From Dehalococcoidia bacterium (GTDB lineage: Bacteria > Chloroflexota > Dehalococcoidia > Bin125), in contig JAJDYG010000040.1 of assembly GCA_022822855.1 (NCBI GenBank), positions 159,905 to 223,904 on the forward strand: a stretch of DNA of 64,000 bases, read 5' to 3'. A program made the position numbers and the translations under genes. Positions 4,616-55,778 of this stretch are shown here, piece after piece (position 1 is the stretch's first letter; each line of letters begins with the position of its first letter). Below the pieces are notes generated by a model. It had not been told where the DNA came from, searched no databases, and was given only the letters and a program-made list of their open reading frames with translations.

Positions 4616-4691
4616 CCGCTCCCCTATCACCCGCATGCGATAATGCCCTGACGCAAGATTGAGGAGCGGCTTGTCGGTTAGGGGTGCTGCG

Positions 4692-6932: not shown

Positions 6933-7155
6933 CGCGACCAGATCGTCGTTGCCGCCCGAAGAGAGGTGGTTAACGGAGTCAGACAGGGTTCCCGCCTTCA
7001 GGAACGGCGAGGAACGGCAGCTGAGTGCATGAGTCTGTATCCCATCTGACTGCCCGACTTCCCGCGGGCCGACACAATAACCAATTGGACGCGCGGCCTG
7101 ATTCGGGCCCGCCCCGAACTGCCTTGAGCACATCTTTCCAGTCAGTGAGGAACCG

Positions 7156-7959
7156 ATGGATGTCATCGTCTGCGTGAAGCAGATTCCCGATCCCGAAACG
7201 CCCGCCGCGGCCTTCAAGGTCGACGAGGGGGCCATGCAGGTGTTGCCTGCTCAGGGCATTTCGCCCGTGATCTCTCCCTTCGACGCCCAGGCGGTCGAGG
7301 CCGCCTTGCGAATCAAGGACGCCTCCGGCGACGGCACGGTCAACGTCGTCTCCCTCGGCCCCGATTCCGCCCGCGATGCGATCAAGCATTCGCTGGCCAT
7401 GGGCGCCGACGAGGGCTACCACCTCAAGGACGACGCCTTCGAAGGCGGCGACGCCTGGACGACCGCGCTGGCCCTGTCCAAAGCGATCCGGCATCTCGGC
7501 GTCCCCGATGTCCTGATCTTCGGCCGCCAAGCCGCCGACTGGGACCAGGGCACCGTCGGTAGTATCGTCGCCGAGCTGCTCGACCTGCCCTCCGCCACCG
7601 TGCTGCGCGCAGTCGAACTGAACGGCGACAGCATCACGGTCTCTCGCGTCGTCGCTGACGGCTTCGAGAACATCGAGCTACCGACGCCTTGCGTGCTCAC
7701 CATCTCCAACGAGTTCGGAGACCCGCGCTACCCGCAGCTTCGGCAGATCATGCAGGCCGCCCGGAAGCAGGTCACCGAGTTGACGGCCGCCGACCTCGGT
7801 CTGGCCGCCTCCGAAGTCGGCGCGGCCGGCTCGCGCGTGCAGATGCACGCCCTCTTCCAGCCGACCAGCGACGTGGAGGTTGAGATCATCGAGGGCGATA
7901 CCCCCGAGGAGAAGGCCTCAGGCCTCGTCAACGCCCTCCGCGAAGCAAAGATCCTCTAG
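7156..7959 (+). CDS. etfB: Electron transfer flavoprotein beta subunit
   Basis: MDVIVCVKQIPD, AMGAD, GRQAAD.DQG motifs. Confidence 0.95.
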   Translation: MDVIVCVKQIPDPETPAAAFKVDEGAMQVLPAQGISPVISPFDAQAVEAALRIKDASGDGTVNVVSLGPDSARDAIKHSLAMGADEGYHLKDDAFEGGDAWTTALALSKAIRHLGVPDVLIFGRQAADWDQGTVGSIVAELLDLPSATVLRAVELNGDSITVSRVVADGFENIELPTPCVLTISNEFGDPRYPQLRQIMQAARKQVTELTAADLGLAASEVGAAGSRVQMHALFQPTSDVEVEIIEGDTPEEKASGLVNALREAKIL

Positions 7960-7971
7960 CGGCGCTGAGAG

Positions 7972-8050
7972 CTCCCCCGCCGGGGGAACTGTCGCCAACC
8001 ATGTTCATTTCTCCCCCCGTTGGGGGGAGATGCCGAAGGCAGACGGGGGC
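7972..8050. repeat. Two REP-like palindromes (CTCCCCC-N-GGGGGAG family)
   Basis: CTCCCCCGCCGGGGGAAC and TCTCCCCCCGTTGGGGGGAGATGCCGAAGGCAGACGGGGG; the second recurs almost identically at 28134..28178. Confidence 0.75.
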
Positions 8051-8083
8051 TCCCTCGCTGCAGACCAAGTAAGGAAATCTCGA

Positions 8084-9058
8084 ATGGCTTCCATCCTCGT
8101 AATCGGCGAAACCGACGACGCCGGCCTGACCGCCCCCACCCTCGAGTTGCTCGGCGCAGCCTCACGCCTCAGCGCCGACCTGGGCGGCGGCGTCGCCCTT
8201 GCACTGATTGGCTCGGGCCTCGCCGACGCCGCTGCCGCAGCCGGACCCGCCGGCGCCGACTCCGTCTACACCGCCGACGCCGACTCACTCGCCTCCTACC
8301 AGACCGACAGCTATCTGCCGGTCGCGCAAGGCATCGTTGAGCGGGACTCACCCTCTGTCGTGCTGATGTCGCAGTCCAGCATGGGCCGCGACCTCGCGCC
8401 GCGCCTGGCAACAAGACTCGGCTCCGCGGCGATCATGGACTCGCTCGGGCTCGAAGTCGACGGCGACCGGATCAAGGCCACGCGGAGTTGCTACGGCGGC
8501 AACGCGCGGCAGGTCGTGACCGTCCAGACTGACCCCCAGGTAATCACCGTCCGACCAAAGTCTCAGGACCCGCTCGAAGCCGACAGCTCCCGCTCGGCCG
8601 AGGTGATCTCTGTCGATGTTGCGGAACCCACGCTCCGCGCTCGCACAACAGGCAAGGAACAGGCAGAGGCCGACGGGATCCGCCTCGAAGACGCTGAGAT
8701 CGTCGTTTCAGGCGGTCGCGGTCTGGGCGGACCGGAAGCCTTCTCGGACCTCGAGCGCCTCGCCGGCGTGCTGACCGCCGCCGTCGGTTCATCGCGGGCC
8801 GCATGCGACCTCGGCTGGTACCCGCCCTCGCAGCAGGTCGGACTGACCGGAACGGTCGTCTCGCCCACGCTTTACGTGGCGATCGCCATTTCGGGCGCCA
8901 GCCAGCACATGGCAGGCTGTGGCGGCTCGAAGAACATCGTCGCGATCAACAAGGACCCCGACGCCCCAATCTTCAGCTTCTCCCGCTTCGGCATCGTCGA
9001 CGACTATAAGAAGGTCCTCCCGGCCCTCGAGTCCGCCTTCGCCGAGGCGCTCGATTAG
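8084..9058 (+). CDS. etfA: Electron transfer flavoprotein alpha subunit
   Basis: [50 protein letters not shown] motifs. Confidence 0.95.
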
Positions 9059-9090
9059 GGCGGATCCCGCAGGCGCAACAGGCAGATCCA

Positions 9091-9118
9091 ACAAGGGCGC
9101 CCCGCGGGGCGCCCTTGT
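9091..9118. terminator. Perfect 28-bp palindrome between convergent genes (bidirectional terminator or REP)
   Basis: ACAAGGGCGCCCCGCGGGGCGCCCTTGT is its own reverse complement. Confidence 0.6.
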
Positions 9119-9151
9119 CATTGAGGCTTTTGGGCGTGGGGAAAGCGGAAC

Positions 9152-9688
9152 CTAGACGCCCTGCGTCTTGCGCCAGGTCCGGATTTGGCCGGCGTGTTCC
9201 ATGTCGTGTTCGATCAGGCCGTCGACCAACTCGTTCACCGAGATCTGCGTCTCATCTACGGTCAGCGATTTCTGCTCACGCTCTTCGTCGGTCAGACGGC
9301 TGACCCGGGCTGCCATCGTGTCCCGGATCGTGCGCAACATGTTGAGCAACTCGTCGATCGGCCGTTCAGCCCAGTCTCCCGGCGCTGCGTCGTTGATCTC
9401 GCGCTCTGTGGGGAACGGGCCGACGGGCATGTTCGCCGCCGAGCGCTCCAGCGCGTTCACCGCCCAGGCGTCCCAGCCGACCAGGTGCGCCAGACAGTCT
9501 CGGACGCTCCACGTTCCGACGACATCGGGGATATCGAACGCCTCCGCCTTCAGCCCCTCAACTGCTTCCAGCAGACAGCTACGCTCATCTGTGCAGTCGA
9601 AGGTGTCGGACTTGACATCTTCCGGCTGGTGTGCAGCGACCATCGATTGCTCCCGAGATGCTCTCCGAGGCCGCAACGTCTGTGACAT
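9152..9688 (-). CDS. DinB / maleylpyruvate isomerase N-terminal family protein (start may be 9643)
   Basis: WSVRDCLAHL...EHDMEHAGQI His motif. Confidence 0.85.
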   Translation of the reverse strand: MSQTLRPRRASREQSMVAAHQPEDVKSDTFDCTDERSCLLEAVEGLKAEAFDIPDVVGTWSVRDCLAHLVGWDAWAVNALERSAANMPVGPFPTEREINDAAPGDWAERPIDELLNMLRTIRDTMAARVSRLTDEEREQKSLTVDETQISVNELVDGLIEHDMEHAGQIRTWRKTQGV

Positions 9689-9902
9689 TCGGAGGACGCG
9701 GTGGATACCGGGGATGCCGCGCGCAGCGCCTCGACATCTCCGCGTATCGCAAAACGGAAGCCGACGGATATCTCAACCGGCTTCCGCAGAATCGTCAACT
9801 GGTTGTTAACCCTAGCAATCTGGTCAGGGGCGTCCTGCTGACTGTGACACAGTTCGCAGTGACCGGCTCGCGGGCGACCGGCGAGCGACATTTGCGCCTA
9901 AG

Positions 9903-9931
9903 TTGACCACTCCCAGCCCCGCCAATAGCCT
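9903..9931 (+). promoter_or_regulatory. Sigma70-type promoter for the coaE leader/operon
   Basis: TTGACC-17 nt-TAGCCT. Confidence 0.6.
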
Positions 9932-9939
9932 GAGGTCTC

Positions 9940-10055
9940 AGCGTGCGTCCGCGTGGCTGGTTGCCTGGGTGTCTGTCCTCGGCCTGAACGAGGACCGGAT
10001 TGAGGCAGTTGGTTAGAGGCGGCTGGACGACGCCAAGCTGCGGGGACGCGGACCG
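9940..10055 (+). ncRNA. Candidate structured 5' leader (three-way junction) upstream of coaE
   Basis: GTCCGCGT (9947-9954) pairs with ACGCGGAC (10046-10053); internal GTCCTCG/CGAGGAC hairpin; GCGGCT/AGCTGC hairpin; many G-U pairs that work only on the + strand. No known family recognised. Confidence 0.4.
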
Positions 10056-10058
10056 ACT

Positions 10059-10655
10059 ATGCGCTCGATTGGACTTACCGGCGGGATTGCCTCAGGCAAG
10101 TCAACCGTCGTCAACCAACTCCGAGGACTCGGCGCGGCCACGATTGACGCCGACCTCCTTGGTCACCAAACCTACGAACCCGGTACAGAGACCTTCAAGC
10201 AGGTCGTCGCCGCCTTCGGTGAGGACCTCGTCGCCGAGGACGGCACGATCGACCGCGCCAAACTCGGCCCCAAGGTCTTTGGCCACCCCGACGGCATGAA
10301 GCGCCTGACCGACATCGTCTGGCCCGGGATTCGTGCCCTGGCCGAAGCGGAGCTCGCCCGCCTCGAAGCGGCCGGCACCGAAGTCGCCGTGCTCGAAGCC
10401 GCTGTCATGATCGAGGCCGGCTGGCAGGATCTGGTCGACGAGGTTTGGGTCGTCGCTGTCAGCCGCGACACGGCCCGCGAGCGCCTCATGGCGCGCAACA
10501 GCTTCTCTGCCGAGGAGGCGGACAAGCGAATCGACTCCCAGATCACCAACGACGAACGACTCAAGCACGCCGATGTCCTGATCTCCAACGACTGCAGCAT
10601 GGAAACGGCCTCCGGGCGCGTCGCGCGAGCCTGGGCCGGAATGCAGTCCGAATAG
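10059..10655 (+). CDS. coaE: Dephospho-CoA kinase
   Basis: IGLTGGIASGKS, IDAD, IDRAKLG, RLMARN...RIDSQ, D.LISND motifs. Confidence 0.95.
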   Translation: MRSIGLTGGIASGKSTVVNQLRGLGAATIDADLLGHQTYEPGTETFKQVVAAFGEDLVAEDGTIDRAKLGPKVFGHPDGMKRLTDIVWPGIRALAEAELARLEAAGTEVAVLEAAVMIEAGWQDLVDEVWVVAVSRDTARERLMARNSFSAEEADKRIDSQITNDERLKHADVLISNDCSMETASGRVARAWAGMQSE

Positions 10656-10738
10656 CATCGACCACTGGGCCTACACAAAGGAACAGCACCTGAGCACACA
10701 CTCGCCGCTGATGATGCGGCAGAGCGGGAGAGCGTTTG

Positions 10739-11635
10739 ATGACCACTGCCACCGATCCGATCACCGAGTATCGCAGCTGGGCTGTTGAGGAATTCCGAGC
10801 AGAAGAAGAGCCGTACTACGTGCCCGTCTCGGATGAAGTCGAAGTCTTCGAGGCCGCCTGGAACAACAAAATTCCAGTGCTGCTCAAGGGACCGACCGGT
10901 TGCGGCAAGACCCGGTTCGTTGAGTACATGGCCTACCACCTCAACCGCCCGCTCGCTGTCGTCCGCGATGGCAAGGCGGAGGTCGAGTCCGAGTCCAACC
11001 TGCCGCTCGTCACCGTCGCCTGCCACGAAGACTTGACCGCCTCCGACCTCGTCGGCCGCTACCTGCTCGAAGGCAACGAAACCGTCTGGATCGACGGCCC
11101 CCTCACCCGCGCCGTCAAGGCCGGAGCCATCTGCTACCTCGATGAGGTTGTCGAAGCCCGCAAGGACACCACGGTCCTCATCCACCCGCTCACCGACCAC
11201 CGCCGCATCCTGCCCGTCGAGAAGAAGTCGCAGCTCCTCCAGGCTCGCGACGGCTTCCTCCTCGTCATCTCCTTCAACCCCGGCTACCAGTCGGCGCTCA
11301 AGGACCTCAAGCAATCGACCCGCCAACGCTTCGTCGCCGTGGAATTCGACTACCCGCCCCGCGAAACAGAGGCCGAGATCGTCCAGCACGAAGCTGAGTG
11401 CTCCTACGAAGTCGCCTTGAACCTCGCCAAGATGGCCGAGAAGATCCGCAACCTGCGCGAACACGGCCTCGCCGAGGGCGCGTCCACACGCCTCCTGATC
11501 TACGCCGGTCGCATGATTGCCGCCGGCGTCTCTCCGCGCCGCGCCTGCCAGGTGGCCATCGTCTGGCCACTCACCGACGACGGTGAAGTCCAGCGCTCGA
11601 TCGAGGAAGTCGTTTCCTCGATCTTCGAGGACTAG
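10739..11635 (+). CDS. CbbQ/NirQ/NorQ-family MoxR-type AAA+ ATPase
   Basis: [54 protein letters not shown] motifs. Confidence 0.93.
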
Positions 11636-11653
11636 GACCGGACCCGGCTTCCA

Positions 11654-12226
11654 GTGCGGATCGGCATCGTCTCGGACATCCACTGCAACGCAGCCGCCCT
11701 TGATCGCGCCATCGAGCAGATGGGTGACATCGACGAACTGCTCTGCGCCGGTGATGCCTGCTATCAGTACCGCTTCTCCAACGATGTCGCCGAGCGGCTC
11801 AAGCAGCTCGGCGGTCGCTATGTGCTCGGCAATCACGAAGAGATCCTGCTTTCCGAGGCCGGCGCCCGCGCCCAGGCCTCGCCCAGCGTGGATCGCTCGC
11901 TGCTCGAGTGGACGCGCGAGCAACCGCACCTGATTCGCACCGACATCGGCTCGAAGAAGCTTCTCATGTTCCACGCGACGCCCTGGGCGCCGTACCGCGA
12001 CTACCTGTTCCCGCACGACCCGCAGCTACAGCGGCTCGCCGAGGAAGAGGCCGACTTCATCATCTACGGGCACACGCATGCGCCGTTGGTCAAGCGGATA
12101 GACCGGGCGCTGATCATCAACCCCGGTTCGGCCGGGGAGATGCGCGGGACCGAGCAGGTCCTGACCTATGCTGTGCTGGATACGTCCGACGATCACGCCG
12201 AGATCGAACAGATTCGGTTTGACTGA
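11654..12226 (+). CDS. Metallophosphoesterase (YfcE/calcineurin-like)
   Basis: DIH, GD, GNHE, H, GHTH, NPGS motifs. Confidence 0.9.
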   Translation: MRIGIVSDIHCNAAALDRAIEQMGDIDELLCAGDACYQYRFSNDVAERLKQLGGRYVLGNHEEILLSEAGARAQASPSVDRSLLEWTREQPHLIRTDIGSKKLLMFHATPWAPYRDYLFPHDPQLQRLAEEEADFIIYGHTHAPLVKRIDRALIINPGSAGEMRGTEQVLTYAVLDTSDDHAEIEQIRFD

Positions 12227-12292
12227 CCGTGAGCCCCACAACGGCTGCCCGTTGCCAGTGAGCTATCGGGGGGCCGGCTTGGATAGACGCCC

Positions 12293-15200
12293 ATGACCGA
12301 CACCCACTCCAACCCGCTCGTCGAAGAGGCACGCGAGGGACTGCGCCAGTTCCCGCCTGCGCTGGCTCAGGAATTCGAGGCCGCGCTCGACGCCGTGGTG
12401 CCCGTCCTCGAGCCGGACGAGCTCGCTCAATGGCTGCGTGATGGCCTGGACATCGCCCGGCACTCGCTGCGTAGCTGGGAAGCGTCCTCCGAGTATTTCC
12501 GAGCCTCGGGGCCGGTCCTCGAGCAGATCACCTACGACCGCATGCGCGAGTGGTGCGCCGTCGGCATCGAGCTGATGGAAACGTCTCCGGCGCTCTCCGG
12601 CGCACTCTTCCGCGCCTCTCCGGCCGTGCTGCCGCATCTCTCCGTGCCTCAAGCCAACGATTGGGCAGCCCAGGGCAAGTCGCTCTACAAAGGGACGTGG
12701 AAGTCTGGCTCGCTCTCGGCCCAGTATTTCGACGTCTCGCCGCAGATTCTTCCCCACCTTCCGCTCTCACAGATGCGGCTCCTGGTCGACCTGATCGACT
12801 CACTCGCTTCGCACTCCTACGAGCTCGCCTCAGCCTGCCTCGGCATGGCGCCCGGCGTGCTCTCCCAGCTTGACCGCTCCGACCGCGCTCCGTTCCTCGA
12901 GTTCGGAGGCATCGTTGCGCACACCGCCTGGGTCGACGCCCGCGTCTACTTCGAGCGCGGACCCGGAGCTCTGCGACAGGTCTCCGAGGAGCAGCGACCG
13001 CGCTACCTCTCCCTCGCCGGACAGGTGGCGATGCAGGTCGGAAGACTCGGCCACCCTTACTTCATCGAGGCCGCTCAGGCCTTCTCCGAAGTCGACAAGG
13101 ACATCCACGAGGGACTGCTGGAGCTGGCCGAGCAGCTCTCCCAACACTCCGGCGATGCTGCCATGGAGTTCATCAAGTCCTCGCCTCGCGTCGCGCAACG
13201 CCTCGGCATCGACGACATTGCCCGCTGGCAGGAGTTCGGACTGAACATCCTCCAGCAGTCTCGCGACGGCGGCGAAGCCTTCTTCCGGCTCGAGTCCGCC
13301 CGCGGCGAAGAGGTCATGGAAGCGCTCAGCAGCCGCGTTGACCTCGACCGCGTCTCCGAGTTGATTCGCATGTATTGCAAGGCCCTGACCGGCGTCGACG
13401 TCGGCGTCAAGGCCTCCGAGGAATTGACTGCCAAGGGCGTCGGCTGGGTCGACGAAAGCAGCCCCACGACCGAGGGCACCACGATCTATCTGCCCGAAAA
13501 CGTCGAGCGCTACCCGACCAAGGACGAAAACTTCGCGGTCTACAAGGTCTTCGCCACCCACCAGGCCGGCCGACTGGAATTCGGCTCCTTCGAGTACCAG
13601 TCCGAGATCAACCCGAAACTCTTCCCTGGCGACCAGAACGGCACGCGCAACGGCCACGGAGGCAGTTCCGGCAACGGCGTCGCTCCTGCGGTGGTCGAAG
13701 CCGAAGAGGGCGAGATCCACACCGACATGGAGCGCTTCTTCGACCAGTTCGGCGACCGCCGCCTCGCCCACGATCTGTTCACCATCGTCGAGGACACCCG
13801 GATCGACACGATCGTCAAGCGCGAGTACGCCGGGGTGCGGCGCGCCTTCTCGCGACTCCAGCAGGCTGCCATCGACCGCCGTCGGCCGGTCGAGGACATG
13901 CCCGCCCGCCAGGCGATGGTTGAGAACCTGCTGCGTGCGTCGCTGGACGAGATCGGCCGGATCCGCTGGCCCAACGAACTAGCCGAAGAAATGCGCGCGC
14001 CGCTGCGCATCCTCAACCGAATTCGGCAGGATGGCGCGACCGTCCAGGACAGCGCCGCCGCAACGGCCCTGCTCTACGAATGGCTCTCGCAGATCCCCAA
14101 CGTCGAACTCGACACCGAGGACTGGTCCGACTTCGAGCAGGAAATGTCCGGCGACCCCGACTCGGGCGAAGACTCGGACATGATGCCGGGCTCCGGATCG
14201 TCCGGTCTCGAAGAGTCGTTCATGCCCTTCATGCCCGGCTCCGAGGAACAGCCCTACGACAGTCCCGACCCCGTCGACTTCCGCGGCGATTTCAAGCCCG
14301 AGCTCGTCCAGTTGCTGATGAAGCTCAAGGGCGAGACCGGCACCGGCGACGCGCCGCCGATCCCGTTGACCAAGGAACAGCTCCAGGAACTGCTGGAGAA
14401 ATCGGTTGAGATCTCGATCAACGAGCTGATGGACATGGACTTGGCCGAGTCCTCAGGCATGTTCCTCGACAACCTGCTCAAGGAAGTCAACCAGATCCAG
14501 GGCGAGCGCCAGGAAGGCCAACAGGCCATGGGCGACGACTCGACCGGAGCCGAGGACGGCGAGGAGCTGCCCGTCGAGGCGGCCTCGTTCTACTACGACG
14601 AGTGGGATTTCCGCGCCGCCGACTACAAGCCCCGCTGGTGCCGGGTGCAGGAACAGCGCGGCGAGTCGGGCACGGCCAGCTACTACGCCGAGACCCTGCA
14701 CGAACACACCCAGCTCGTCCAGGAAACGCGCAAGCAGTTCGAGATGCTGCGCCCGGAAATGTTCCGCAAGATGAAGCGCCTGACCGATGGCGAGGACTAC
14801 GACCTCGACGCCGTGATCGAGTGGTACACCGAGAAGATCGCCGGCGGCGCCTCGGAGACCAAGCTCTTCTACCGGCGCAACAAGGTCGAGCGCGACGTCG
14901 CAGTGGCCTTCCTGCTCGACGTCTCCGCCTCAACCGACGAGGAAATCCAGAAACACCACGATCAGCGCCAGGACGACCAGTTCGACGACGACCCCCGCAA
15001 GTACCTGAGCTGGTGGGCCCAGCGTCGCGCCGAGGCCGCACGGCACCCGGGCAAGCGAATCATCGACCTCGAGAAAGAGGCGACCGTCCTCCTGATCGAG
15101 GCCCTGGAGACGATCGGCGACAAGTACGGCGTCTACGGCTTCTCCGGCTACGGCCGCGACAACGTCGAGTTTTTCGTCTACAAGGACATGGACGAGCCCT

Positions 15201-15580
15201 TCGGCGACCGGATCAAGGAGCGCATCGACAAGATCGCGCCGGTCCGCTCAACCCGCATGGGTCCGGCAATCCGGCATTGCATCTGGAAGCTGCAGAACAC
15301 CGACGCCAAGGTCAAGATCCTGATGCTGCTCTCCGACGGTCGGCCGCAGGACCATGGCTACGGCCGCGACCGGACCGAGAAGGAATACGCGATCCACGAC
15401 ACCAAGATGGCGCTGACCGAGGCGCGCCGCGAGGGCATGGTCCCGTTCGCGCTAACCGTCGACCGCGCCGGGCACGACTATCTCAAGCAGATGTGCCAGG
15501 ACATGGCCTACGAGGTCGTCGCCGACATCGAGTCCCTCCCCCGCCGCCTGCCCGCCCTCTACCGCCGCCTCACCGGCTAG
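12293..15580 (+). CDS. NorD/CbbO-like VWA-domain protein (1095 aa) with N-terminal 37-aa helical repeats
   Basis: C-terminal MIDAS (LLDVSAS, STRMG, LSDGRPQD); YDEWD..A.DY motif typical of NorD/CbbO; in operon with the CbbQ-type ATPase. Confidence 0.88.
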   Translation: MTDTHSNPLVEEAREGLRQFPPALAQEFEAALDAVVPVLEPDELAQWLRDGLDIARHSLRSWEASSEYFRASGPVLEQITYDRMREWCAVGIELMETSPALSGALFRASPAVLPHLSVPQANDWAAQGKSLYKGTWKSGSLSAQYFDVSPQILPHLPLSQMRLLVDLIDSLASHSYELASACLGMAPGVLSQLDRSDRAPFLEFGGIVAHTAWVDARVYFERGPGALRQVSEEQRPRYLSLAGQVAMQVGRLGHPYFIEAAQAFSEVDKDIHEGLLELAEQLSQHSGDAAMEFIKSSPRVAQRLGIDDIARWQEFGLNILQQSRDGGEAFFRLESARGEEVMEALSSRVDLDRVSELIRMYCKALTGVDVGVKASEELTAKGVGWVDESSPTTEGTTIYLPENVERYPTKDENFAVYKVFATHQAGRLEFGSFEYQSEINPKLFPGDQNGTRNGHGGSSGNGVAPAVVEAEEGEIHTDMERFFDQFGDRRLAHDLFTIVEDTRIDTIVKREYAGVRRAFSRLQQAAIDRRRPVEDMPARQAMVENLLRASLDEIGRIRWPNELAEEMRAPLRILNRIRQDGATVQDSAAATALLYEWLSQIPNVELDTEDWSDFEQEMSGDPDSGEDSDMMPGSGSSGLEESFMPFMPGSEEQPYDSPDPVDFRGDFKPELVQLLMKLKGETGTGDAPPIPLTKEQLQELLEKSVEISINELMDMDLAESSGMFLDNLLKEVNQIQGERQEGQQAMGDDSTGAEDGEELPVEAASFYYDEWDFRAADYKPRWCRVQEQRGESGTASYYAETLHEHTQLVQETRKQFEMLRPEMFRKMKRLTDGEDYDLDAVIEWYTEKIAGGASETKLFYRRNKVERDVAVAFLLDVSASTDEEIQKHHDQRQDDQFDDDPRKYLSWWAQRRAEAARHPGKRIIDLEKEATVLLIEALETIGDKYGVYGFSGYGRDNVEFFVYKDMDEPFGDRIKERIDKIAPVRSTRMGPAIRHCIWKLQNTDAKVKILMLLSDGRPQDHGYGRDRTEKEYAIHDTKMALTEARREGMVPFALTVDRAGHDYLKQMCQDMAYEVVADIESLPRRLPALYRRLTG

Positions 15581-15605
15581 CAGCCAAGACCTATCCCTTC
15601 CGATC

Positions 15606-15705
15606 CCCTCTCCCTCTGGGAGAGGGCTAGGCTGAGGGCCGCACGTGGTCCTTGCTCCCCCTCGCAGGGGGAGCTGTCCCGTAGGGACCGAGGGGGTCCC
15701 CCCGT
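15606..15705. repeat. REP-like palindrome cluster
   Basis: CCCTCTCCCTCTGGGAGAGGGCTAGGCTGAGGG and CTCCCCCTCGCAGGGGGAGCTGTCCCGTAGGGACCGAGGGGGG. Confidence 0.75.
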
Positions 15706-15717
15706 TACCATGACCTC

Positions 15718-16071
15718 ATGACACTCCTCGCCGGGACCCTGACCACCGCGGGCATCGCCGCCGCCTTCGTCGCCACCCTGATTAACCAGGATTCGACCGG
15801 CCTCTACATCGTCTGCGCGGTCGTCGCGGCCGCCGGTCTGCTGCTGATGCTCCTCCAGGTCGCCCGAACCCGCCGAGACGCCGCGCCCCGTTACGCCTGG
15901 TACGCCCTCGCCCCGATGGGGATCGTCGTCGCCCTCCTCGGCATCGCCGCCTCGGGAGCCACCTGCGGAGTCGCCTGCATCGCCTGGGGAACCCCAGCGG
16001 CCGCCGCAACCCTCGCCGCCCCCGACATCCGAGGCTGGTTCGACCGCAAACGCCCGCTGAGAAGCCCGTAA
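15718..16071 (+). CDS. Small four-TM membrane protein, function unknown
   Basis: 117-aa hydrophobic ORF that fills the gap and converges on the permease gene. Confidence 0.55.
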   Translation: MTLLAGTLTTAGIAAAFVATLINQDSTGLYIVCAVVAAAGLLLMLLQVARTRRDAAPRYAWYALAPMGIVVALLGIAASGATCGVACIAWGTPAAAATLAAPDIRGWFDRKRPLRSP

Positions 16072-16138
16072 CGTCTCTGGGGAATCCCAGTGGAGCCAGA
16101 TCTTGTGGCTGCGGCTGCCCGTAGATCCGCCGCGCAAC

Positions 16139-19100
16139 TCAGTTCGTCAACCGAAGCTCGCGATTCAACTCCAGCTTCAGGAACCACCGCCAGGTCGCCA
16201 GCACCCCGATCACCAGCACGCCAATCAACACCGCGAACGCTACCCCGAGAATCTGCCAATCCGTCTCGATCTGGAACGGCGGCAGCACCGTCCGGCCTGT
16301 CTCGTCGATCTCCAGGTAAGCCAGCAACAACAGCGAGATCCGGTTCCCCAGCAACACCCCCAGCACCAGCCCCGTCCCAACGATGATCGCGTACTCAAGG
16401 AACAACTGGATCAGGATGCTGGCGTTGCCCACCCCAACGGTGCGCAGCAACGCCATCTCCAGTCTTCGCTGTCTCGCCGAGACCGCCATCGACACCAGGA
16501 AAGCCAGCGCCAACAACAGCGAGATCGCGATGAACGCGACCAGCAGAATCCCCGATCCACCGGCGGTCGTCAGAGGATCGCGGCCGCTGTCATCGAGCCG
16601 TTCGTCGCGGTCGAAGAACTTACCCAGCGAGTAGCGCGGGCGCTCGAGTTCCTCCTTCGCCGCAATACGCAGCTCGGGGTCGTCCGACAGATCGAGCCAC
16701 GCTTCCGTCGGCGTCACGGCCGGGCGCAGAGCCGTCACCGAGCCGAAGTGGGCGAGCGCGTCGTAGTCGGCCACGATGAACGACAGCTCGTCAGGGCGCA
16801 GGGTCGGGAACAGTGGCACGATGTTCGACACTCTCGCCATCACGACGACGGTGTCCAGGCGCAGCGGATAGCGATCGCCGATCTCCAGCCGCTGCCGTGC
16901 GGCGAAGTCCGCGCTAATGATCGTGGGTATGGTGCAGCGCGTGTTGCTGCAGAACGAAGGATCGGCGAAGTGCGCGGCACGCAGCCCGGGCGATTGACCG
17001 ACCCCGGGATAGAAGGCCATCACGTGCTCGCCCGAGATCGGATCGTCGTCGGCCTCGAACTCGACCTCGTCTCCGGTTCCGCGGCGCTGGACGAACTCCA
17101 ACCAGCCGCGGTTCTCAAAGTCCTCAATGATCAGCTCGCGCCCGTCGGGCTGGATCGCTGTGATCGCGTCGTAGTAGACCGTTGACGGCTCCGACGCGAA
17201 CAGACCGAACGGTTCGCTCATCACGAGCGAGTGCAGCGTGTACGGACCGGAACCGCCGGCGCCCACGATCTCCCCCTGGAAGTCGATGTCCATCGCCGTC
17301 CAGGGCGAGCTGGACGGTGGCATCTCCAGGCCGCCGCCGGTCAGATACCGGCCGTCGCCGTCGCGTACGCGGATCCAGAAGGACTGATCGGTCTCTCCTT
17401 CGCCCATCCTGACCCAGACCCGGAGCGTCTCGGTCCCCTCCGGAATCCCCACCCCGCGGCCGACCGGAGGCACGTCGATCGACGAGATTAGTTCCTCGAA
17501 CGTGATCAACGACATGTCCTCCCGGAACCACATCATCTCGACGGCCGCTTTCGGTTCGAGTCCGAGCAGCGTCACGCTGGTCGTCGTTCCCACGCTGCGC
17601 CCCGCCGACACCTTGCTCCGGAACACCGAGGCGATCCCGTCGACACCCTCGATCGGACCCAGCCGGTCGCGAACGCCGTTGGCCGTGGAGTATCCGGTGT
17701 CGCCGAGCCCGACCCGGAACTCGACCCCGTTGTCGTACTCAATCCGCTCTGCCAGCGACAATTCGACGGTGTCCGCATAGGAGGCCGCGAACGTCCCCAG
17801 GGCAGCCCCCAGCATCAACAGGATCGTGAGCCGCGCCGCCGGCCCCACCGTTCTGCTCACGTAGCGCAGCGTCGACGCCACAGAGAGCGGGAACCGGTCG
17901 TAGGTCAGCCAGGCGAAGAATCGATAGAAGTAGGGCAGGAATCTCAGAATCACCAGCGTCGCCGCGAGCGCGAACAGGATCGGCGTACTCAGCAACAGCG
18001 GATCGGCGGAAAGGCCGCCGACGCTATTCCGCTCGAAGACCGTCCCCTTCAGATCGGCCTCGAAGATCAGACCCACCGCGACCAGCACCAGGGCCACGTC
18101 GAGGAAGTAACGCTGCAGAGCGTTCGGCCCGGCCGGTCGCGAGACGCCGCGCAGCCGCTCGGAGAGCACCCGGGTCCGGCTCGCGACCACGAGCGGGGCG
18201 AGCGTGAACAACACGGCCACGATCGCGCCCGCCGCCGAGAGCAGGAAGGCCATGTCGGTCAACGTCGTGGGAATCGGCGCACTGCCGGTCAGCGGCTCGA
18301 AGACCGGCGTGTAACCCAGCAGTCCGATCACACCCATCGCGATAAACGGCGCGACCGCCGCGGCAATGATCGCGAGCAGGATGCCCTCGATCGCCGTGTG
18401 CGAGATGACCTGGACGATCGACGCGCCTCGGGAGCGCATCGAGAACAACTCTTCCCGACGCTGGGCCACCTGCACGCCGGACACGATCACGACGTAGAAC
18501 AACGCGATCCCCACGACCTGAGCCAGCAGCATCAGGATCGGCACCTGCGTGAAGTTCAGGTCCTTGACGAACGACTCCAGCCGGGGCTCGATCGGTGACC
18601 GCATGCCCCCGCCGACCGAGCGCAGATCCTCGCGCAACAGATCGAACGACTCGCGGGTCTCATCGAGCACGGCCACGTTCAACTGGTCCGTGTCCAACTC
18701 CGAGATCCACATCGTGTTGACGAGGTAGCCGCTCATCACGCGCGGCAACTCGCCCACGAACGTCTCCGAGGGAATGATCAGCGGAATGGTCTGCAGTCGG
18801 GCCGGCCCTGAGTAGACGCCGAAGGTGATCTCTCTCGGCACCCGCTTCCAGAATGCGCTCTCCGGGTTGTCCGGTTCAACGATGCCGGTCACGACGATCG
18901 GGATGAAGCGAGCAATCGCCATCGTCGGCTCGCACGGAGGACGCGGCGGCGGCGGCGGCCCACCGGGCGGCGGATCCGGCTCGCGGTCACACTCGTCAAA
19001 CCCGTCGACGACTTGCCAGGTCGATCCGACGCTCACGCCGTAGCCGCTGGCGACGCGCTGAGTCAACGCCACTTCGAGCGGACCCTCAAGCCACCCGGCC

Positions 19101-19558
19101 GCGTTCACGACCGGCGGCGAGGGAAAGCTCCCCTCAAGCATCGTGATGTTGTCCTCGGCGTCATCCAATGCGGCGAAGTAAGAAGTGGTCGGTATGACCT
19201 GGCCCTGCCTCGGCGGGAAGTCGACCAACGTCGGCACCGTCGTGCGGTACCGGAGCTGTTGCGATTCCAGCTCACCGAATCGCTCGCTGATCGACTCGTC
19301 GGCATATTCGCGAGCCGACTCGTTCGGCCCGCCGCCCATCGGTAGGCCGTTGAGGAAGGTGAACATCTGCCGGCGCTCGGTCAGGTCCTCGCGCAGACTC
19401 ACGGTCAACGAGAGATCGGAAACCGCCCGCGTGTAGATCGTCGTCGAAGACATCAGCACGGCGGCCACCAGGATGCCCGCCGCGATCACCAGTTGGATCC
19501 GCCAACTGTCGCGCATACGGCGTAGGACAAAGCCCAGAACGGCGCCGAACGACTCCAC
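16139..19558 (-). CDS. FtsX/MacB-type ABC transporter permease with two TM modules (1139 aa)
   Basis: Two RR.E...+R..GA motifs (RREELFSMRSRGA, RRLEMALLRTVG); large extracytoplasmic domains. Confidence 0.88.
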   Translation of the reverse strand: MESFGAVLGFVLRRMRDSWRIQLVIAAGILVAAVLMSSTTIYTRAVSDLSLTVSLREDLTERRQMFTFLNGLPMGGGPNESAREYADESISERFGELESQQLRYRTTVPTLVDFPPRQGQVIPTTSYFAALDDAEDNITMLEGSFPSPPVVNAAGWLEGPLEVALTQRVASGYGVSVGSTWQVVDGFDECDREPDPPPGGPPPPPRPPCEPTMAIARFIPIVVTGIVEPDNPESAFWKRVPREITFGVYSGPARLQTIPLIIPSETFVGELPRVMSGYLVNTMWISELDTDQLNVAVLDETRESFDLLREDLRSVGGGMRSPIEPRLESFVKDLNFTQVPILMLLAQVVGIALFYVVIVSGVQVAQRREELFSMRSRGASIVQVISHTAIEGILLAIIAAAVAPFIAMGVIGLLGYTPVFEPLTGSAPIPTTLTDMAFLLSAAGAIVAVLFTLAPLVVASRTRVLSERLRGVSRPAGPNALQRYFLDVALVLVAVGLIFEADLKGTVFERNSVGGLSADPLLLSTPILFALAATLVILRFLPYFYRFFAWLTYDRFPLSVASTLRYVSRTVGPAARLTILLMLGAALGTFAASYADTVELSLAERIEYDNGVEFRVGLGDTGYSTANGVRDRLGPIEGVDGIASVFRSKVSAGRSVGTTTSVTLLGLEPKAAVEMMWFREDMSLITFEELISSIDVPPVGRGVGIPEGTETLRVWVRMGEGETDQSFWIRVRDGDGRYLTGGGLEMPPSSSPWTAMDIDFQGEIVGAGGSGPYTLHSLVMSEPFGLFASEPSTVYYDAITAIQPDGRELIIEDFENRGWLEFVQRRGTGDEVEFEADDDPISGEHVMAFYPGVGQSPGLRAAHFADPSFCSNTRCTIPTIISADFAARQRLEIGDRYPLRLDTVVVMARVSNIVPLFPTLRPDELSFIVADYDALAHFGSVTALRPAVTPTEAWLDLSDDPELRIAAKEELERPRYSLGKFFDRDERLDDSGRDPLTTAGGSGILLVAFIAISLLLALAFLVSMAVSARQRRLEMALLRTVGVGNASILIQLFLEYAIIVGTGLVLGVLLGNRISLLLLAYLEIDETGRTVLPPFQIETDWQILGVAFAVLIGVLVIGVLATWRWFLKLELNRELRLTN

Positions 19559-19727
19559 CCGAACCCCCGCTGCTCGCTCAGAACACGTCGCTGCCGATTG
19601 CTCGGTCGGACGCTGGAATTTCCCTGATCCCTAGTAGTCTACGAAGGCAACGCGGTCGAACATACCCCTGACCAGCCAGTCCGGCAGCAGACCCGGCGCG
19701 AGGTACGACGAGGCGGCACGAGGCAGC

Positions 19728-33872: not shown

Positions 33873-33954
33873 GGGGTTGATGGTATGTGAAAGAGTGTTC
33901 GGAGTTTGTATCGTGGTTGGCGGTTGGGGAGCCACAGGGAGTCCCCCTTTGTCT

Positions 33955-34112
33955 CCGCATCCCCTGATCAAGTCAGGGCAGGCAAGTGCGAGGCAGGCGT
34001 TCGGCGTCTCCCCCACGCACCCCCCCGTCATTCCCGCGCAGACGGGAATCCCGCTCCATTCCCTCTCCCCCGCCGCCAGCGGGGGGAGATGTCCCGTTGT
34101 GACAGAGGGGGG
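33955..34112. repeat. Mixed REP cluster: nested TCAAG palindromes, dRS3-like GTCATTCCCGCG-N-GGGAATC, CTCCCCC family
   Basis: CCGCATC[CCCTGATCAAGTCAGGGCAGGC]AAGTGCGAGGCAGGC; GTCATTCCCGCGCAGACGGGAATC; CTCTCCCCCGCCGCCAGCGGGGGGAGATGTCCCGTTGTGACAGAGGGGGG. Confidence 0.8.
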
Positions 34113-34166
34113 CGCCCCAACCTATGCGACAATCCAACACAGGAACGCCGCACAGGACGACGAAGT

Positions 34167-48970: not shown

Positions 48971-48987
48971 GGTGATTCTCCTCCGCA

Positions 48988-49020
48988 GAAAAAAGCGGCG
49001 CGGGCTGCAACCCGCGCCGC
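48988..49020 (-). terminator. Intrinsic terminator-like hairpin between the two ferritin-like genes
   Basis: Minus strand reads GCGGCGCGGG TTGCAG CCCGCGCCGC TTTTTTCT, immediately before the GGAGGAG RBS of the downstream gene. Confidence 0.6.
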
Positions 49021-49042
49021 CTCCGAGATCCGATGAGAGATC

Positions 49043-55169: not shown

Positions 55170-55250
55170 GCGCGAGCCGGACCCTGAGGCTGGAGTCTCC
55201 GGATCGCCCGTTGCCGCGGGTCTGATCATCCGGACGACAATACCCAGGTC

Positions 55251-55733: not shown

Positions 55734-55778
55734 AGCCCCTACGCCTTTCCGAGCAGACGATAGCACAGGATATCGAGG

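What the first reader, a model, noticed from the sequence alone, without database searches (positions are those of the whole stretch)
10739..15580. CbbQ/NorQ ATPase with a giant NorD/CbbO-like VWA protein but no Rubisco or NO reductase client
CbbQ/CbbO activate Rubisco and NorQ/NorD insert the non-heme iron of cNOR (established). Neither client is in the window. Here the pair sandwiches a metallophosphoesterase and follows coaE, and the VWA protein is about 1095 aa with a large extra N-terminal region. This suggests an uncharacterised client. The di-iron ferritin-like pair in this window is a plausible one, given the iron-insertion role of NorQD.
Basis: partly seen in the sequence, partly recalled or inferred. 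Interest (0 to 1): 0.75.

Follow-up and report, generated by a model that had tools for sequence, protein, structure and literature searches.

The report
SAR202 NorQ/NorD-like chaperone, unknown client
This is a real ATP-driven protein-remodelling pair related to the helpers of Rubisco and nitric oxide reductase; it belongs to its own widespread branch in SAR202/Dehalococcoidia bacteria, sits in a conserved operon with a coenzyme A kinase and a small phosphohydrolase, and its target protein is still unknown and is probably not the ferritin-like pair.

Summary
Window 10059-15580 (+) encodes coaE, a 298-aa CbbQ/NorQ-type AAA+ ATPase, a 190-aa YfcE-type metallophosphoesterase and a 1095-aa VWA protein. 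No Rubisco or NorB/NorC homologue lies in the window.

Residues 348-1095 of the VWA protein align to a complete NorD (hhalign probability 100%). The extra part is residues 1-347, nine roughly 37-residue helical-hairpin repeats (pLDDT 92.6) with no natural structural relative.

The pair is not an isolated oddity. More than 580 relatives occur in species-level genomes, and all those named are Dehalococcoidia/SAR202/Chloroflexota. In 242 loci the order is coaE-ATPase-[CoA-pyrophosphatase-like NUDIX or YfcE-type phosphoesterase]-VWA, while the flanks differ. None has norCB, cbbLS or an aliphatic amidase nearby. ATPase and VWA trees both place the family, with a split homologue from Miltoncostaea oceani, apart from NorQD and from CbbQO/amidase-linked pairs.

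An uncharacterised client is therefore supported. The ferritin-like pair as that client is not: it lies 33 kb away, is never adjacent, and went undetected in four complete chromosomes of the window's own clade that keep the module.

Best reading: a new subfamily of NorQD/CbbQO-type remodeller. The embedded nucleotide-diphosphate hydrolase hints at ligand release (CoA or nucleotide type) rather than iron insertion. That last step is inference.

The parts
10059..10655 (+). coaE, dephospho-CoA kinase (198 aa); first gene of the conserved module
   Evidence: PF01121 3.7e-48 and TIGR00152 2.7e-45. Found directly upstream of the ATPase in 191 of the 207 loci that have an upstream ATPase.
10739..11635 (+). 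CbbQ/NorQ-type MoxR AAA+ ATPase (298 aa)
   Evidence: AAA_5 plus CbbQ_C. 7e-101 to CbbQ 5c3c and about 1e-93 to NorQ 9qh4. The alignment to solved CbbQ/NorQ shows Walker A GPTGCGKT, Walker B YLDEV, the helix-2-insert motif [10 protein letters not shown] and conserved blocks across sensor 1, the Arg finger and sensor 2.
10952..11005 (+). Clade-specific insertion in the ATPase (residues 72-89), between the Walker A helix and the next strand
   Evidence: A 10-24 aa insertion of variable sequence is present in all 16 SAR202 ATPases aligned. It is absent from NorQ, CbbQ, the amidase-linked ATPases and Miltoncostaea.
11654..12226 (+). YfcE-type metallophosphoesterase (190 aa) between the ATPase and the VWA gene
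   Evidence: Metallophos_2 3.9e-29; TIGR00040 67.2 bits, above the 56.25 cut-off. The motifs DIH, GD, GNHE and GHTH can be read in the translation. In 134 other loci a CoA-pyrophosphatase-like NUDIX occupies the same slot.
12293..13333 (+). N-terminal extension of the VWA protein (residues 1-347): array of about nine 37-residue helical-hairpin repeats
   Evidence: AF2 model of residues 1-352: pLDDT 92.6, pTM 0.86, 18 helices. The repeat register [YF]F..SP recurs every 36-40 residues. No natural PDB fold match at E<=1e-3; the best matches are designed helical repeats. Used alone as a query it finds 443 cluster representatives; full-length hits are about 1000-1130 aa and, with one exception (P0134), carry it at the N-terminus.
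13334..14122 (+). NorD-like N-terminal domain (residues 348-610), including the conserved YKV.ATHQAG.LEF and EDxRID motifs
   Evidence: hhalign of the giant family against NorD runs collinearly from residue 348 onwards (probability 100%, E 3e-49). AF2 pLDDT is about 80-89. Invariant residues H423, E500, D501, R503 and D505.
14123..14572 (+). Acidic, low-confidence linker (residues 611-760)
   Evidence: pLDDT below 50 over most of 613-794. It corresponds to the unresolved NorD linker described in PMC13036017.
14573..15580 (+). Finger plus VWA domain with MIDAS (D876-x-S878-x-S880, T987, D1015) and the conserved C-terminal tail LPALYRRLTG; includes the stop codon
   Evidence: Aligned to NorD 353-645. 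Foldseek top hits are the NorD VWA chains 9qh6_G and 9qhe_G (E about 1e-10). The MIDAS residues are invariant in 40 homologues. The C-terminal tail is compared.
14948..15046 (+). Family-specific insertion of about 33 residues (886-918) directly after the MIDAS DxSxS motif
   Evidence: Present in all giant members aligned. Absent from NorD, CbbO, the amidase-linked adaptors and Miltoncostaea.

Best explanation
The locus encodes a complete NorQD/CbbQO-type remodelling machine. The AAA+ ATPase should form a hexamer. One copy of the VWA adaptor should plug its 'finger' into the ring pore and hold on with its C-terminal tail. The adaptor's MIDAS site and N-terminal domains should grip a client protein, which ATP hydrolysis then deforms.

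It is not NorQD or CbbQO proper. It is a distinct subfamily that, as far as members are named, is specific to Chloroflexota (SAR202 and other Dehalococcoidia). Four features define it:
- a roughly 347-residue array of nine helical-hairpin repeats added to the adaptor;
- a roughly 33-residue insertion beside the MIDAS motif;
- a short insertion in the ATPase;
- a conserved four-gene module, coaE - ATPase - (CoA-pyrophosphatase-like NUDIX, or a YfcE-type metallophosphoesterase in the window's clade) - adaptor.

The client is encoded elsewhere and is unknown.

My preferred mechanism is inference, not a demonstrated result. The machine may work as an 'activase' that frees a tightly bound CoA- or nucleotide-type ligand from a client enzyme, and the embedded nucleotide-diphosphate/phosphodiester hydrolase may destroy what is released. 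This would parallel Rubisco activases paired with inhibitor phosphatases. I prefer it to the machine acting as an iron inserter.
For: Shown: family membership of both proteins.
- Both carry the interaction motifs described for NorQD: the helix-2-insert motif GRxLLxxxxT, the finger region, MIDAS and the C-terminal tail.

Shown: a separate clade.
- NJ trees of the ATPase and of the VWA region both group SAR202 plus Miltoncostaea apart from three NorQD pairs and from CbbQ(O) plus amidase-linked pairs.
- The insertions are clade-specific.

Shown: breadth.
- 529 hits among 8000 scored candidates, full length, 53-93% identical.
- 443 cluster representatives for the N-terminal array alone.
- At least 584 relatives in species-representative genomes. 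The best 160 are nearly all labelled Dehalococcoidia, SAR202, Chloroflexota or Chloroflexi, with a few labelled otherwise.

Shown: the module. Of 242 loci:
- 134 are ATPase-NUDIX-VWA;
- 56 are ATPase-MPE(-cyclophilin)-VWA;
- 17 have the two genes adjacent;
- 11 have the VWA gene alone;
- 24 have too short a flank.
coaE lies directly upstream in 191 of the 207 loci with an upstream ATPase. NUDIX and VWA abut or overlap by 4 bp. The flanks differ between clades: Etf/FeS upstream and FtsX downstream in one, enolase/HEPN or GNAT upstream and DctP downstream in others.

The NUDIX's best family is CoA pyrophosphatase NF007980 (3e-30 and 2e-25), far ahead of other NUDIX families.

No NorB, NorC, RbcL, RbcS or AmiE homologue occurs in 3.8 Mb of such loci plus the window.

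Inferred: two unrelated phosphohydrolase folds replace each other in the same slot between the two partners. This suggests that the hydrolase activity belongs to the system.
Against: - No client has been identified, so the mechanism beyond 'NorQD-like remodeller' is untested.
- The coaE linkage could be inherited gene order within one class rather than functional coupling.
- 17 loci lack any hydrolase between the partners, and 11 have the adaptor gene far from any ATPase.
- The NUDIX scores below the curated CoA-pyrophosphatase cut-off (105 against 134 bits).
- The characterised relative most similar in domain organisation, NorQD, inserts a metal, so metal insertion remains equally possible a priori.
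- The trees use few reference sequences, are NJ and have no bootstrap.
- The locus lists are truncated to the best 80 per search, and ORF and tblastn thresholds are heuristic.
Confidence: 0.55

Rival explanations
1. It is an ordinary NorQD (or CbbQO) whose cNOR (or Rubisco) is encoded elsewhere in the genome.
For: JGI names many members 'nitric oxide reductase NorD protein'. The whole NorD aligns. A preprint reports norBC in some Dehalococcoidia (10.1101/2021.08.23.457424).
Against: - Canonical norQD and cbbQ sit beside norCB and cbbLS in every reference locus inspected. None of 242 SAR202 loci does.
- Both proteins fall outside the NorQD and CbbQ(O) groups.
- The adaptor has 347 extra residues and an insertion next to MIDAS.
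- The module is present in at least 584 genomes of a lineage described as aerobic organoheterotrophs. The cultured SAR202 genome description mentions NapAB and N2O reduction but not NOR or Rubisco (PMC10444878).
Confidence: 0.07
2. The di-iron ferritin-like pair (47876-50164, - strand) is the client, and the machine loads its iron.
For: The pair exists. One paralogue keeps the ExxH motifs. The family co-occurs with the module in about 37 of 45 assemblies of the window's clade and in at least 7 of 29 of the ~52% clade.
Against: - It is 33 kb away and was never within 10 kb of the VWA gene in the 162 loci screened for it.
- It was not found in four complete chromosomes of the same clade that keep the module (OY730488.1, OZ220495.1, OZ242034.1, OZ242037.1).
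- It was not found in the 66-70% clade, nor among the best 80 hits for any of 80 distant SAR202 assemblies.
- The family also occurs in MAGs labelled Anaerolineaceae, Thermoflexaceae and Hyphomicrobiales.
- No ferritin-like di-iron protein is known to need such a chaperone (own knowledge).
Confidence: 0.04
3. It is a metal-insertion or assembly chaperone, as NorQD is, for a housekeeping metalloenzyme encoded elsewhere. Candidates include the EtfAB-linked membrane FeS/CCG oxidoreductase, which lies upstream in two clades, or a respiratory complex.
For: - NorQD inserts FeB (PMC13036017). Other MoxR-VWA pairs act on respiratory or metal enzymes (abstracts; PMC4240915).
- EtfB-EtfA and a 757-aa FeS/CCG protein lie upstream of coaE in the window's clade and in part of the ~52% clade.
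Against: The Etf/FeS genes are absent from the 10-kb flanks of all 80 distant SAR202 loci. Nothing explains the embedded NUDIX or MPE. There is no direct evidence for any metal.
Confidence: 0.2
4. The small hydrolase between the two genes (MPE or NUDIX) is itself the client, for example for loading its metal site.
For: It occupies the slot between the partners in 190 of the 207 loci with an upstream ATPase. The MPE has a dinuclear metal site (family knowledge).
Against: Two unrelated folds would then have to be clients of the same adaptor. 17 loci have no hydrolase there. NUDIX and YfcE-type enzymes are active without chaperones (own knowledge).
Confidence: 0.05
5. It is an anti-phage or conflict system of the MoxR-VWA type.
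For: MoxR-VWA modules occur in conflict systems (PMC7159879, listed). There are weak PADLOC hits to IetA limited to the P-loop region.
Against: The PADLOC hits are weak (E>=6e-6) and cover only about 30 residues around Walker A. The VWA protein has none. The module sits at a fixed core-genome position beside coaE across hundreds of species. There is no effector domain.
Confidence: 0.02

Closest known systems
NorQ/NorD of Paracoccus denitrificans and Jhaorihella thermophila (PDB 9qh4-9qhg; PMC13036017, PMC9976466)
   Same: - The ATPase is about 50-55% identical to NorQ and shares the AAA_5 plus CbbQ_C architecture and the helix-2-insert motif.
- Adaptor residues 348-1095 are collinear with the whole NorD: N-terminal domain, disordered linker, finger, VWA/MIDAS and C-terminal tail.
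   Different: - No norCB nearby.
- A separate clade in both trees.
- 347 extra N-terminal residues in nine helical repeats.
- An insertion of about 33 residues after the MIDAS motif, and an 18-residue insertion in the ATPase.
- An operon with coaE and a phosphohydrolase.
CbbQ/CbbO Rubisco activase (Halothiobacillus 5c3c, Acidithiobacillus 6l1q; cbbLS-cbbQ on a Cereibacter sphaeroides plasmid)
   Same: The best single PDB hit of the ATPase is CbbQ (7e-101), with about 59% identity to Cereibacter CbbQ. The VWA region is about 30% identical to the CbbO region downstream of cbbQ. It is the precedent for an 'activase' mode that releases an inhibitory ligand.
   Different: No Rubisco genes lie in the window or in any locus. 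The ATPase and VWA region fall outside the CbbQ(O) group. The repeat array is much longer.
Amidase-operon CbbQ-like ATPase plus a ~750-aa VWA protein (Labrenzia and Roseateles plasmids; comparable to P. aeruginosa AmiB, from own knowledge)
   Same: It shows that CbbQ/NorQ-type pairs serve clients other than Rubisco and cNOR. The ATPase is 58-60% identical. The adaptor has a few N-terminal helical repeats that weakly match the giant's array (hhalign probability 48%, E 2e-4).
   Different: It is linked to an aliphatic amidase and urea/amide transporter genes. The VWA region is only 25% identical. It has no MIDAS-side insertion and groups with CbbQ(O), not with SAR202.
Miltoncostaea oceani SCSIO 61214 plasmid NZ_CP064358.1 (Thermoleophilia): ATPase + 362-aa protein + 548-aa VWA protein
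   Same: The closest relative found in a cultured organism. The ATPase is 61-64% identical. The 362-aa protein matches giant residues 302-435 (E 9e-20). The VWA protein is 43% identical to residues 766-1094. It is sister to SAR202 in the ATPase tree and falls within the giant-family clade in the VWA tree.
   Different: The adaptor is split or frameshifted into two ORFs and has fewer repeats. It lacks the MIDAS-side insertion and the ATPase insertion. There is no coaE and no hydrolase, and the locus is on a plasmid.
CoxD/CoxE/CoxF (Mo-Cu CO dehydrogenase maturation), RavA/ViaA, CobS/CobT, GvpN
   Same: All share the general theme of a MoxR-type AAA+ working with a VWA partner. CoxF was proposed to carry a phosphatase motif (PMC4240915).
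   Different: These are different MoxR subfamilies. GvpN scores 59.7 bits against a 266.8-bit cut-off. No CobS/CobT, RavA or CoxD model matched at E<=0.01.

Membership tests
CbbQ/NorQ (CGN) subfamily of MoxR AAA+ ATPases | AAA_5 domain followed by the CbbQ_C domain, about 270-300 aa | tested here: met
   PF07728 2.7e-30 (residues 46-198) and PF08406 3.9e-30 (residues 211-294).
CbbQ/NorQ (CGN) subfamily of MoxR AAA+ ATPases | Walker A/B, sensor and Arg-finger blocks, and the helix-2-insert motif GRxLL/IxxxxT that contacts the VWA finger | tested here: met
   [13 protein letters not shown] and [10 protein letters not shown] align with solved CbbQ and NorQ. The motif is defined in PMC13036017.
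CbbQ/NorQ (CGN) subfamily of MoxR AAA+ ATPases | Forms ATP-hydrolysing hexamers | not testable with these tools
   Requires biochemistry.
NorD/CbbO family of VWA adaptors | C-terminal VWA domain with an intact MIDAS (DxSxS...T...D) | tested here: met
   D876, S878, S880, T987 and D1015 are invariant in 40 homologues. PF00092 3.4e-5. Foldseek gives NorD VWA chains at E about 1e-10.
NorD/CbbO family of VWA adaptors | Finger segment before the VWA core, and a conserved hydrophobic C-terminal tail that binds the ATPase | tested here: met
   RKQFEMLRP...DGEDYDLDAVIE aligns with NorD RRQFEALRP...DGDDLDIEAAV. The tail LPALYRRLTG compares with NorD LPQIYRQLVG. The finger geometry itself is of low confidence in the model.
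NorD/CbbO family of VWA adaptors | NorD-type N-terminal domain and linker, collinear over the whole protein | tested here: met
   hhalign A1 against A3: giant 348-1095 to NorD 36-640, probability 100%, E 3.1e-49.
NorD/CbbO family of VWA adaptors | Usual size of about 590-800 aa with no long N-terminal repeat array | tested here: not met
   1095 aa. Residues 1-347 are additional.
NorQD system (FeB insertion into cNOR) | Genes adjacent to norC and norB | tested here: not met
   Reference loci show norCB-QD. There is no NorB/NorC homologue in the window or in 3.8 Mb of related loci.
NorQD system (FeB insertion into cNOR) | ATPase and adaptor group with NorQ and NorD | tested here: not met
   Separate clade in NJ trees. 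Few references and no bootstrap.
NorQD system (FeB insertion into cNOR) | The genome encodes cNOR | not testable with these tools
   Only flanks of up to 10 kb can be fetched. Literature: norBC is reported in some Dehalococcoidia and is not mentioned for cultured SAR202.
CbbQO Rubisco activase | Genes adjacent to cbbLS or cbbM, or in a carboxysome locus | tested here: not met
   There is no RbcL/RbcS homologue in the window or the loci. For contrast, see the Cereibacter reference locus.
CbbQO Rubisco activase | ATPase and adaptor group with CbbQ and CbbO | tested here: not met
   CbbQ(O) groups with the amidase-linked pairs, apart from SAR202. Only one CbbQ and a partial CbbO were used.
YfcE-type metallophosphoesterase | Score above the TIGR00040 cut-off, and the MPE metal-ligand motifs | tested here: met
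   67.2 bits against a 56.25 cut-off. DIH, GD, GNHE and GHTH can be read in the translation.
CoA pyrophosphatase (NudL/NUDT7-type NUDIX), for the gene that replaces the MPE in other clades | Score above the NF007980 cut-off, and the CoA-type motif upstream of the Nudix box | tested here: inconclusive
   Best family by far (105 and 90 bits) but below the 134-bit cut-off. The RSx3Kx3Gx3FPGG motif is present in L086 and partly present in L101.
Known anti-phage defence systems (PADLOC) | Match to a defence-system protein model | tested here: not met
   Only P-loop-limited hits at E>=6e-6 for the ATPase, and none for the VWA protein.

The most novel reading that the evidence does not exclude
The coaE-ATPase-hydrolase-adaptor module is a cofactor-linked 'enzyme repair' system. 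The AAA+/VWA machine would pull a dead-end CoA-derived (or other nucleotide-diphosphate) ligand out of an abundant class of CoA-dependent enzymes in SAR202. The NUDIX or MPE would hydrolyse the ligand, and CoaE would sit in the same operon because the system is tied to CoA turnover. This would be the first activase of the CbbQO kind acting outside Rubisco.
Probability: 0.15. Interest if true: 0.8.

Novelty: new variant of a known kind. Interest (0 to 1): 0.5.

Why it matters
SAR202 and related Dehalococcoidia are among the most abundant bacteria of the dark ocean and of sponges. This module is a conserved feature of their genomes, yet it is named only 'hypothetical', 'VWA domain protein' or, misleadingly, 'nitric oxide reductase NorD'. 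That last name can inflate inferred denitrification potential in metagenome surveys.

For AAA+ biology it offers a third, deeply conserved branch of the CbbQ/NorQ-VWA machines. It has a large added repeat array, an altered MIDAS surface and a built-in phosphohydrolase. Finding its client would show how far the 'finger-in-pore' remodelling mechanism is used beyond Rubisco and cNOR.

SAR202 strains (PMC10444878) and Miltoncostaea oceani are now in culture, so the question can be tested experimentally.

Tried and rejected
- PADLOC scan of the three proteins: nothing meaningful.
- NCBIfam on the VWA protein, on reference NorD and on the amidase-linked adaptor: no model exists.
- Rfam over the whole window: no family.
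- Promoter and terminator scan of 9000-16500: no + strand terminator inside the module and no promoter-like site. Uninformative for this phylum.
- Foldseek with the full-length model: only the VWA part matched. Foldseek with the confident N-terminal model: no natural relative, only designed helical repeats.
- Search for the lineage of the most divergent giant members (P0233 and others) in genomes and metagenomes: only more SAR202-type loci at 35-43% identity, no new context. Cluster look-up gave only 'hypothetical protein [SAR202/Chloroflexota]'.
- My first ferritin-like search, using exact peptide seeds, suggested a distribution limited to the window's clade. The alignment-based search corrected this to 267 relatives, so I withdrew the claim of a narrow distribution.
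- CinA lies downstream on the opposite strand within 12 kb in 89 of 242 loci. I treat it as neighbourhood context, not as part of the module.
- Cyclophilin genes lie between the ATPase and the MPE in a few loci. I regard them as insertions.
- CbbO from the Cereibacter plasmid is unannotated, and only a 417-aa ORF was recovered, so the CbbO comparison is partial.
- CobS/CobT, GvpN, RavA and CoxD memberships are rejected on scores.

Full report
**What is there**

The window is 65% G+C. Its closest relatives are metagenome-assembled genomes labelled Dehalococcoidia, Chloroflexota or SAR202, many from sponges and seawater. Between 10059 and 15580 lie four genes on the + strand with short gaps of 83, 18 and 66 bp:
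- coaE (198 aa);
- an AAA_5 plus CbbQ_C ATPase (298 aa);
- a YfcE-type metallophosphoesterase (190 aa);
- a 1095-aa protein whose only Pfam hit is a VWA domain at residues 927-1073.

An independent gene call on an ENA scaffold gives the same four products. Upstream are an enoyl-CoA hydratase, an acyl-CoA ligase, a LysM protein, a 757-aa FeS/CCG oxidoreductase, EtfB/EtfA and a DinB-family gene. Downstream are two FtsX-type permeases of about 1135 aa. No Rubisco or NorB/NorC homologue is in the window.

**The two partners are a bona fide CbbQ/NorQ-NorD/CbbO-type pair**

The ATPase hits solved CbbQ (5c3c, 7e-101; 6l1q, 2e-93) and NorQ (9qh4, 4e-93; 9qhd, 3e-92) over its full length. It keeps Walker A and B and the helix-2-insert motif [10 protein letters not shown]. 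In the 2026 NorQD cryo-EM study that motif is the one that grips the VWA 'finger' (PMC13036017).

The C-terminal 330 residues of the VWA protein align to solved NorD (8e-38). This stretch includes the finger segment, the MIDAS residues and the C-terminal tail that anchors NorD on NorQ. Foldseek with the AF2 model returns the NorD VWA chains first.

A profile-profile comparison of 40 homologues against three NorD sequences aligns residues 348-1095 to essentially the whole NorD (probability 100%, E 3e-49). The protein is thus a complete NorD-like adaptor plus 347 extra N-terminal residues.

**The extra region**

Residues 1-347 are strongly conserved. They are predicted with high confidence (pLDDT 92.6, pTM 0.86) as 18 helices. 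The sequence shows a [YF]F..SP...W..G..L register recurring every 36-40 residues, which gives about nine helical-hairpin repeats.

No natural PDB structure matches at E<=1e-3. The best matches are designed helical repeat proteins. Used alone as a query against 1.84 billion cluster representatives, the region finds 443 proteins. Full-length hits are 1000-1130 aa and, with one exception (P0134), carry it at the N-terminus, down to 21-25% identity. Full-length alignments to the window protein remain collinear down to 32% identity.

The ~750-aa adaptor of amidase-linked CbbQ-like ATPases seems to hold about three or four such repeats (hhalign probability 48%, E 2e-4). The array therefore looks like an expansion of a variable N-terminal module. 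In NorD and CbbO that module is thought to set target specificity (PMC9976466).

Two further features are family-specific. One is an insertion of about 33 residues immediately after the MIDAS DxSxS motif. The other is a 10-24-residue insertion in the ATPase after the Walker A helix.

**Distribution and gene context**

The family is large:
- 529 hits among 8000 scored candidates, the listed ones 53-93% identical and full length;
- at least 584 relatives in a collection holding one genome per species, with the 160 best nearly all labelled Dehalococcoidia, SAR202, Chloroflexota or Chloroflexi and a few labelled otherwise.

Names given by sources are 'hypothetical protein', 'VWA domain-containing protein' or, from JGI, 'nitric oxide reductase NorD protein'.

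I classified 242 loci from genomes and metagenomes:
- 134 are ATPase-NUDIX-VWA;
- 56 are ATPase-metallophosphoesterase-VWA, five of them with a cyclophilin as well;
- 17 have the two partners adjacent;
- 11 have the adaptor gene with no ATPase within at least 3 kb upstream;
- 24 have too short a flank.

coaE lies directly upstream of the ATPase in 191 of the 207 loci with an upstream ATPase. The NUDIX gene abuts or overlaps the adaptor gene by 4 bp. Its best family by a wide margin is CoA pyrophosphatase, though below the curated cut-off.

Outside these four genes the neighbourhood changes between clades. Upstream it is Etf/FeS, or enolase plus HEPN, or a GNAT gene. Downstream it is FtsX permeases, a DctP-type gene or others, and a CinA gene is frequent there. 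The conserved unit is therefore coaE-ATPase-hydrolase-adaptor. None of these loci, 3.8 Mb in all, contains a NorB, NorC, RbcL, RbcS or aliphatic amidase homologue.

**Position relative to the known systems**

Annotated plasmids supplied labelled references:
- norCB-QD clusters of Ruegeria, Sulfuricurvum and Amphritea;
- cbbLS-cbbQ of Cereibacter;
- CbbQ-like ATPases with a ~750-aa VWA protein next to an aliphatic amidase and amide/urea transporter genes in Labrenzia and Roseateles. These already show that this ATPase type serves clients other than Rubisco and cNOR.

In neighbour-joining trees of the ATPase and of the VWA region, the SAR202 sequences form their own group. NorQ/NorD form a second group, and CbbQ(O) plus the amidase-linked pairs form a third. 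The window ATPase is 49-55% identical to the NorQ references, 59% to CbbQ and 58-60% to the amidase-linked ATPases. The trees use few references and have no bootstrap support, so the topology is indicative only.

The nearest relative in a cultured organism is on a 46.6-kb plasmid of Miltoncostaea oceani (Thermoleophilia). It has an ATPase (61-64% identity), a 362-aa protein matching giant residues 302-435, and a 548-aa VWA protein 43% identical to residues 766-1094. This is a split or frameshifted relative without the insertions, without coaE and without a hydrolase.

**The ferritin-like hypothesis**

The two are 35% identical. The first keeps two ExxH motifs and the second has lost them. Support for 'ferritin-like' from databases is weak.

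It lies 33 kb from the module. On related complete chromosomes it is about 30-40 kb away as well. A first search suggested that it is confined to the window's clade. A more sensitive alignment-based search found 267 relatives, including many in the ~52% clade and in other Chloroflexota, so I withdrew that claim.

Co-occurrence is frequent but not obligatory:
- about 37 of 45 assemblies of the window's clade, and at least 7 of 29 of the ~52% clade, have both;
- four complete chromosomes of the window's own clade (OY730488.1, OZ220495.1, OZ242034.1, OZ242037.1) have the module but gave no ferritin-like hit;
- none of the 66-70% clade, including the complete OZ244557.1 and OZ252031.1, is among the best 80 ferritin-like hits;
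- none of 80 distant SAR202 assemblies is among the best 80 either.

The lists are truncated and detection is seed-dependent, so this weakens the idea rather than excluding it. There is no positive evidence for it.

**How it most likely works**

Shown: all parts needed for the NorQD/CbbQO mechanism are present and conserved. These are the hexamer-forming ATPase, the finger, the C-terminal anchor, the MIDAS site, the NorD-type N-terminal domain and a long flexible linker.

Inferred: one adaptor binds one ATPase ring. The client is held between the MIDAS face, here remodelled by an insertion, and the N-terminal domains, here enlarged by a nine-repeat array. ATP-driven rotation or stretching then deforms the client, as proposed for NorQD.

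Which outcome follows, metal insertion or ligand release, is not shown. I lean towards ligand release. Two unrelated phosphohydrolase folds occupy the same slot between the partners in 92% of the loci with an upstream ATPase: a CoA-pyrophosphatase-like NUDIX and a YfcE-type phosphodiesterase. The operon also starts with the last enzyme of CoA synthesis. This is reminiscent of Rubisco activases that work alongside phosphatases which destroy the released inhibitor (own knowledge). SAR202 genomes, this window included, are crowded with CoA-dependent enzymes such as enoyl-CoA hydratases, family III CoA-transferases and acyl-CoA ligases.

This remains a hypothesis, at about 0.15-0.25. A metal-insertion role for a housekeeping metalloenzyme encoded elsewhere is the main alternative.

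**Limits**

- Whole genomes could not be screened for norB, rbcL or co-varying genes.
- A preprint reports norBC in some Dehalococcoidia. The genome description of cultured SAR202 mentions NapAB and N2O reduction but neither NOR nor Rubisco.
- No paper in the searchable library mentions SAR202 together with norQ.

**Verdict**

This is a real, well-conserved feature: a new subfamily of a known kind of machine with an unknown client. The suggestion of an uncharacterised client is supported. The specific ferritin-like client is not.

Noticed in passing
window 47876-50164 (- strand): Two adjacent 35%-identical paralogues of about 370 aa with no Pfam family. One has E...DEARH...E...DESRH (di-metal carboxylate-like) and the other has lost these ligands. 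The family has 267 relatives, mostly Chloroflexota. It may be a heterodimeric ferritin-like oxidase with one catalytic and one degenerate subunit.
   Followed up: partly
window 4659-9058 (+ strand): A 757-aa protein with two CCG domains and a 4Fe-4S dicluster lies next to EtfB/EtfA, an acyl-CoA ligase and an enoyl-CoA hydratase. This looks like an ETF-linked membrane FeS oxidoreductase module for fatty-acid oxidation. The EtfB and EtfA ORFs as listed overlap (7156-7959 and 7880-9058), so the EtfA start is probably later.
   Followed up: no
window 16139-23126: Two divergently oriented, very large FtsX-domain permeases (1139 and 1132 aa), conserved downstream of the module only in the window's clade. 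They give weak ADOP-family hits.
   Followed up: no
window 37543-42149 (- strand): An error-prone polymerase cassette: a DnaE2-like Pol III alpha (1091 aa) overlapping an ImuB-like IMS-family protein (489 aa).
   Followed up: no
window 33906-35609 (+) and 54000-59500: A DNA methylase fused to an HNH nuclease sits in a patch of lower G+C (0.61). A second low-G+C patch (0.59-0.61) holds a 934-aa protein with weak N6-methyltransferase hits and a 281-aa protein with a weak TIR-like hit. Both may be horizontally acquired restriction or defence genes.
   Followed up: no
window 31376-31471 (- strand): ARAGORN calls a 96-nt tRNA-Trp inside the family III CoA-transferase ORF (31342-32520, + strand). 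Rfam finds no tRNA there, so it is probably a false positive.
   Followed up: partly
L209 7965-11048 and L214 5992-9007 (Labrenzia and Roseateles plasmids): CbbQ/NorQ-type ATPases with adaptors of about 750 aa (annotated 'hypothetical protein', VWA-containing by alignment) lie directly downstream of an aliphatic amidase and UrtBCDE-like transporter genes. This is another CbbQ-type pair with a non-Rubisco, non-NOR context.
   Followed up: partly
L081, L040 and 87 other loci, downstream of the VWA gene: A CinA-type gene (MoCF_biosynth plus CinA domains) lies on the opposite strand within 12 kb downstream in 89 of 242 loci, across all three clades. With coaE and the NUDIX this makes a neighbourhood rich in nucleotide-cofactor genes.
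   Followed up: partly
L065, L076, L078, L080 (between the ATPase and the MPE): In several genomes of the ~52% clade, one or two cyclophilin-type peptidyl-prolyl isomerase genes with N-terminal extensions are inserted between the ATPase and the phosphoesterase.
   Followed up: partly
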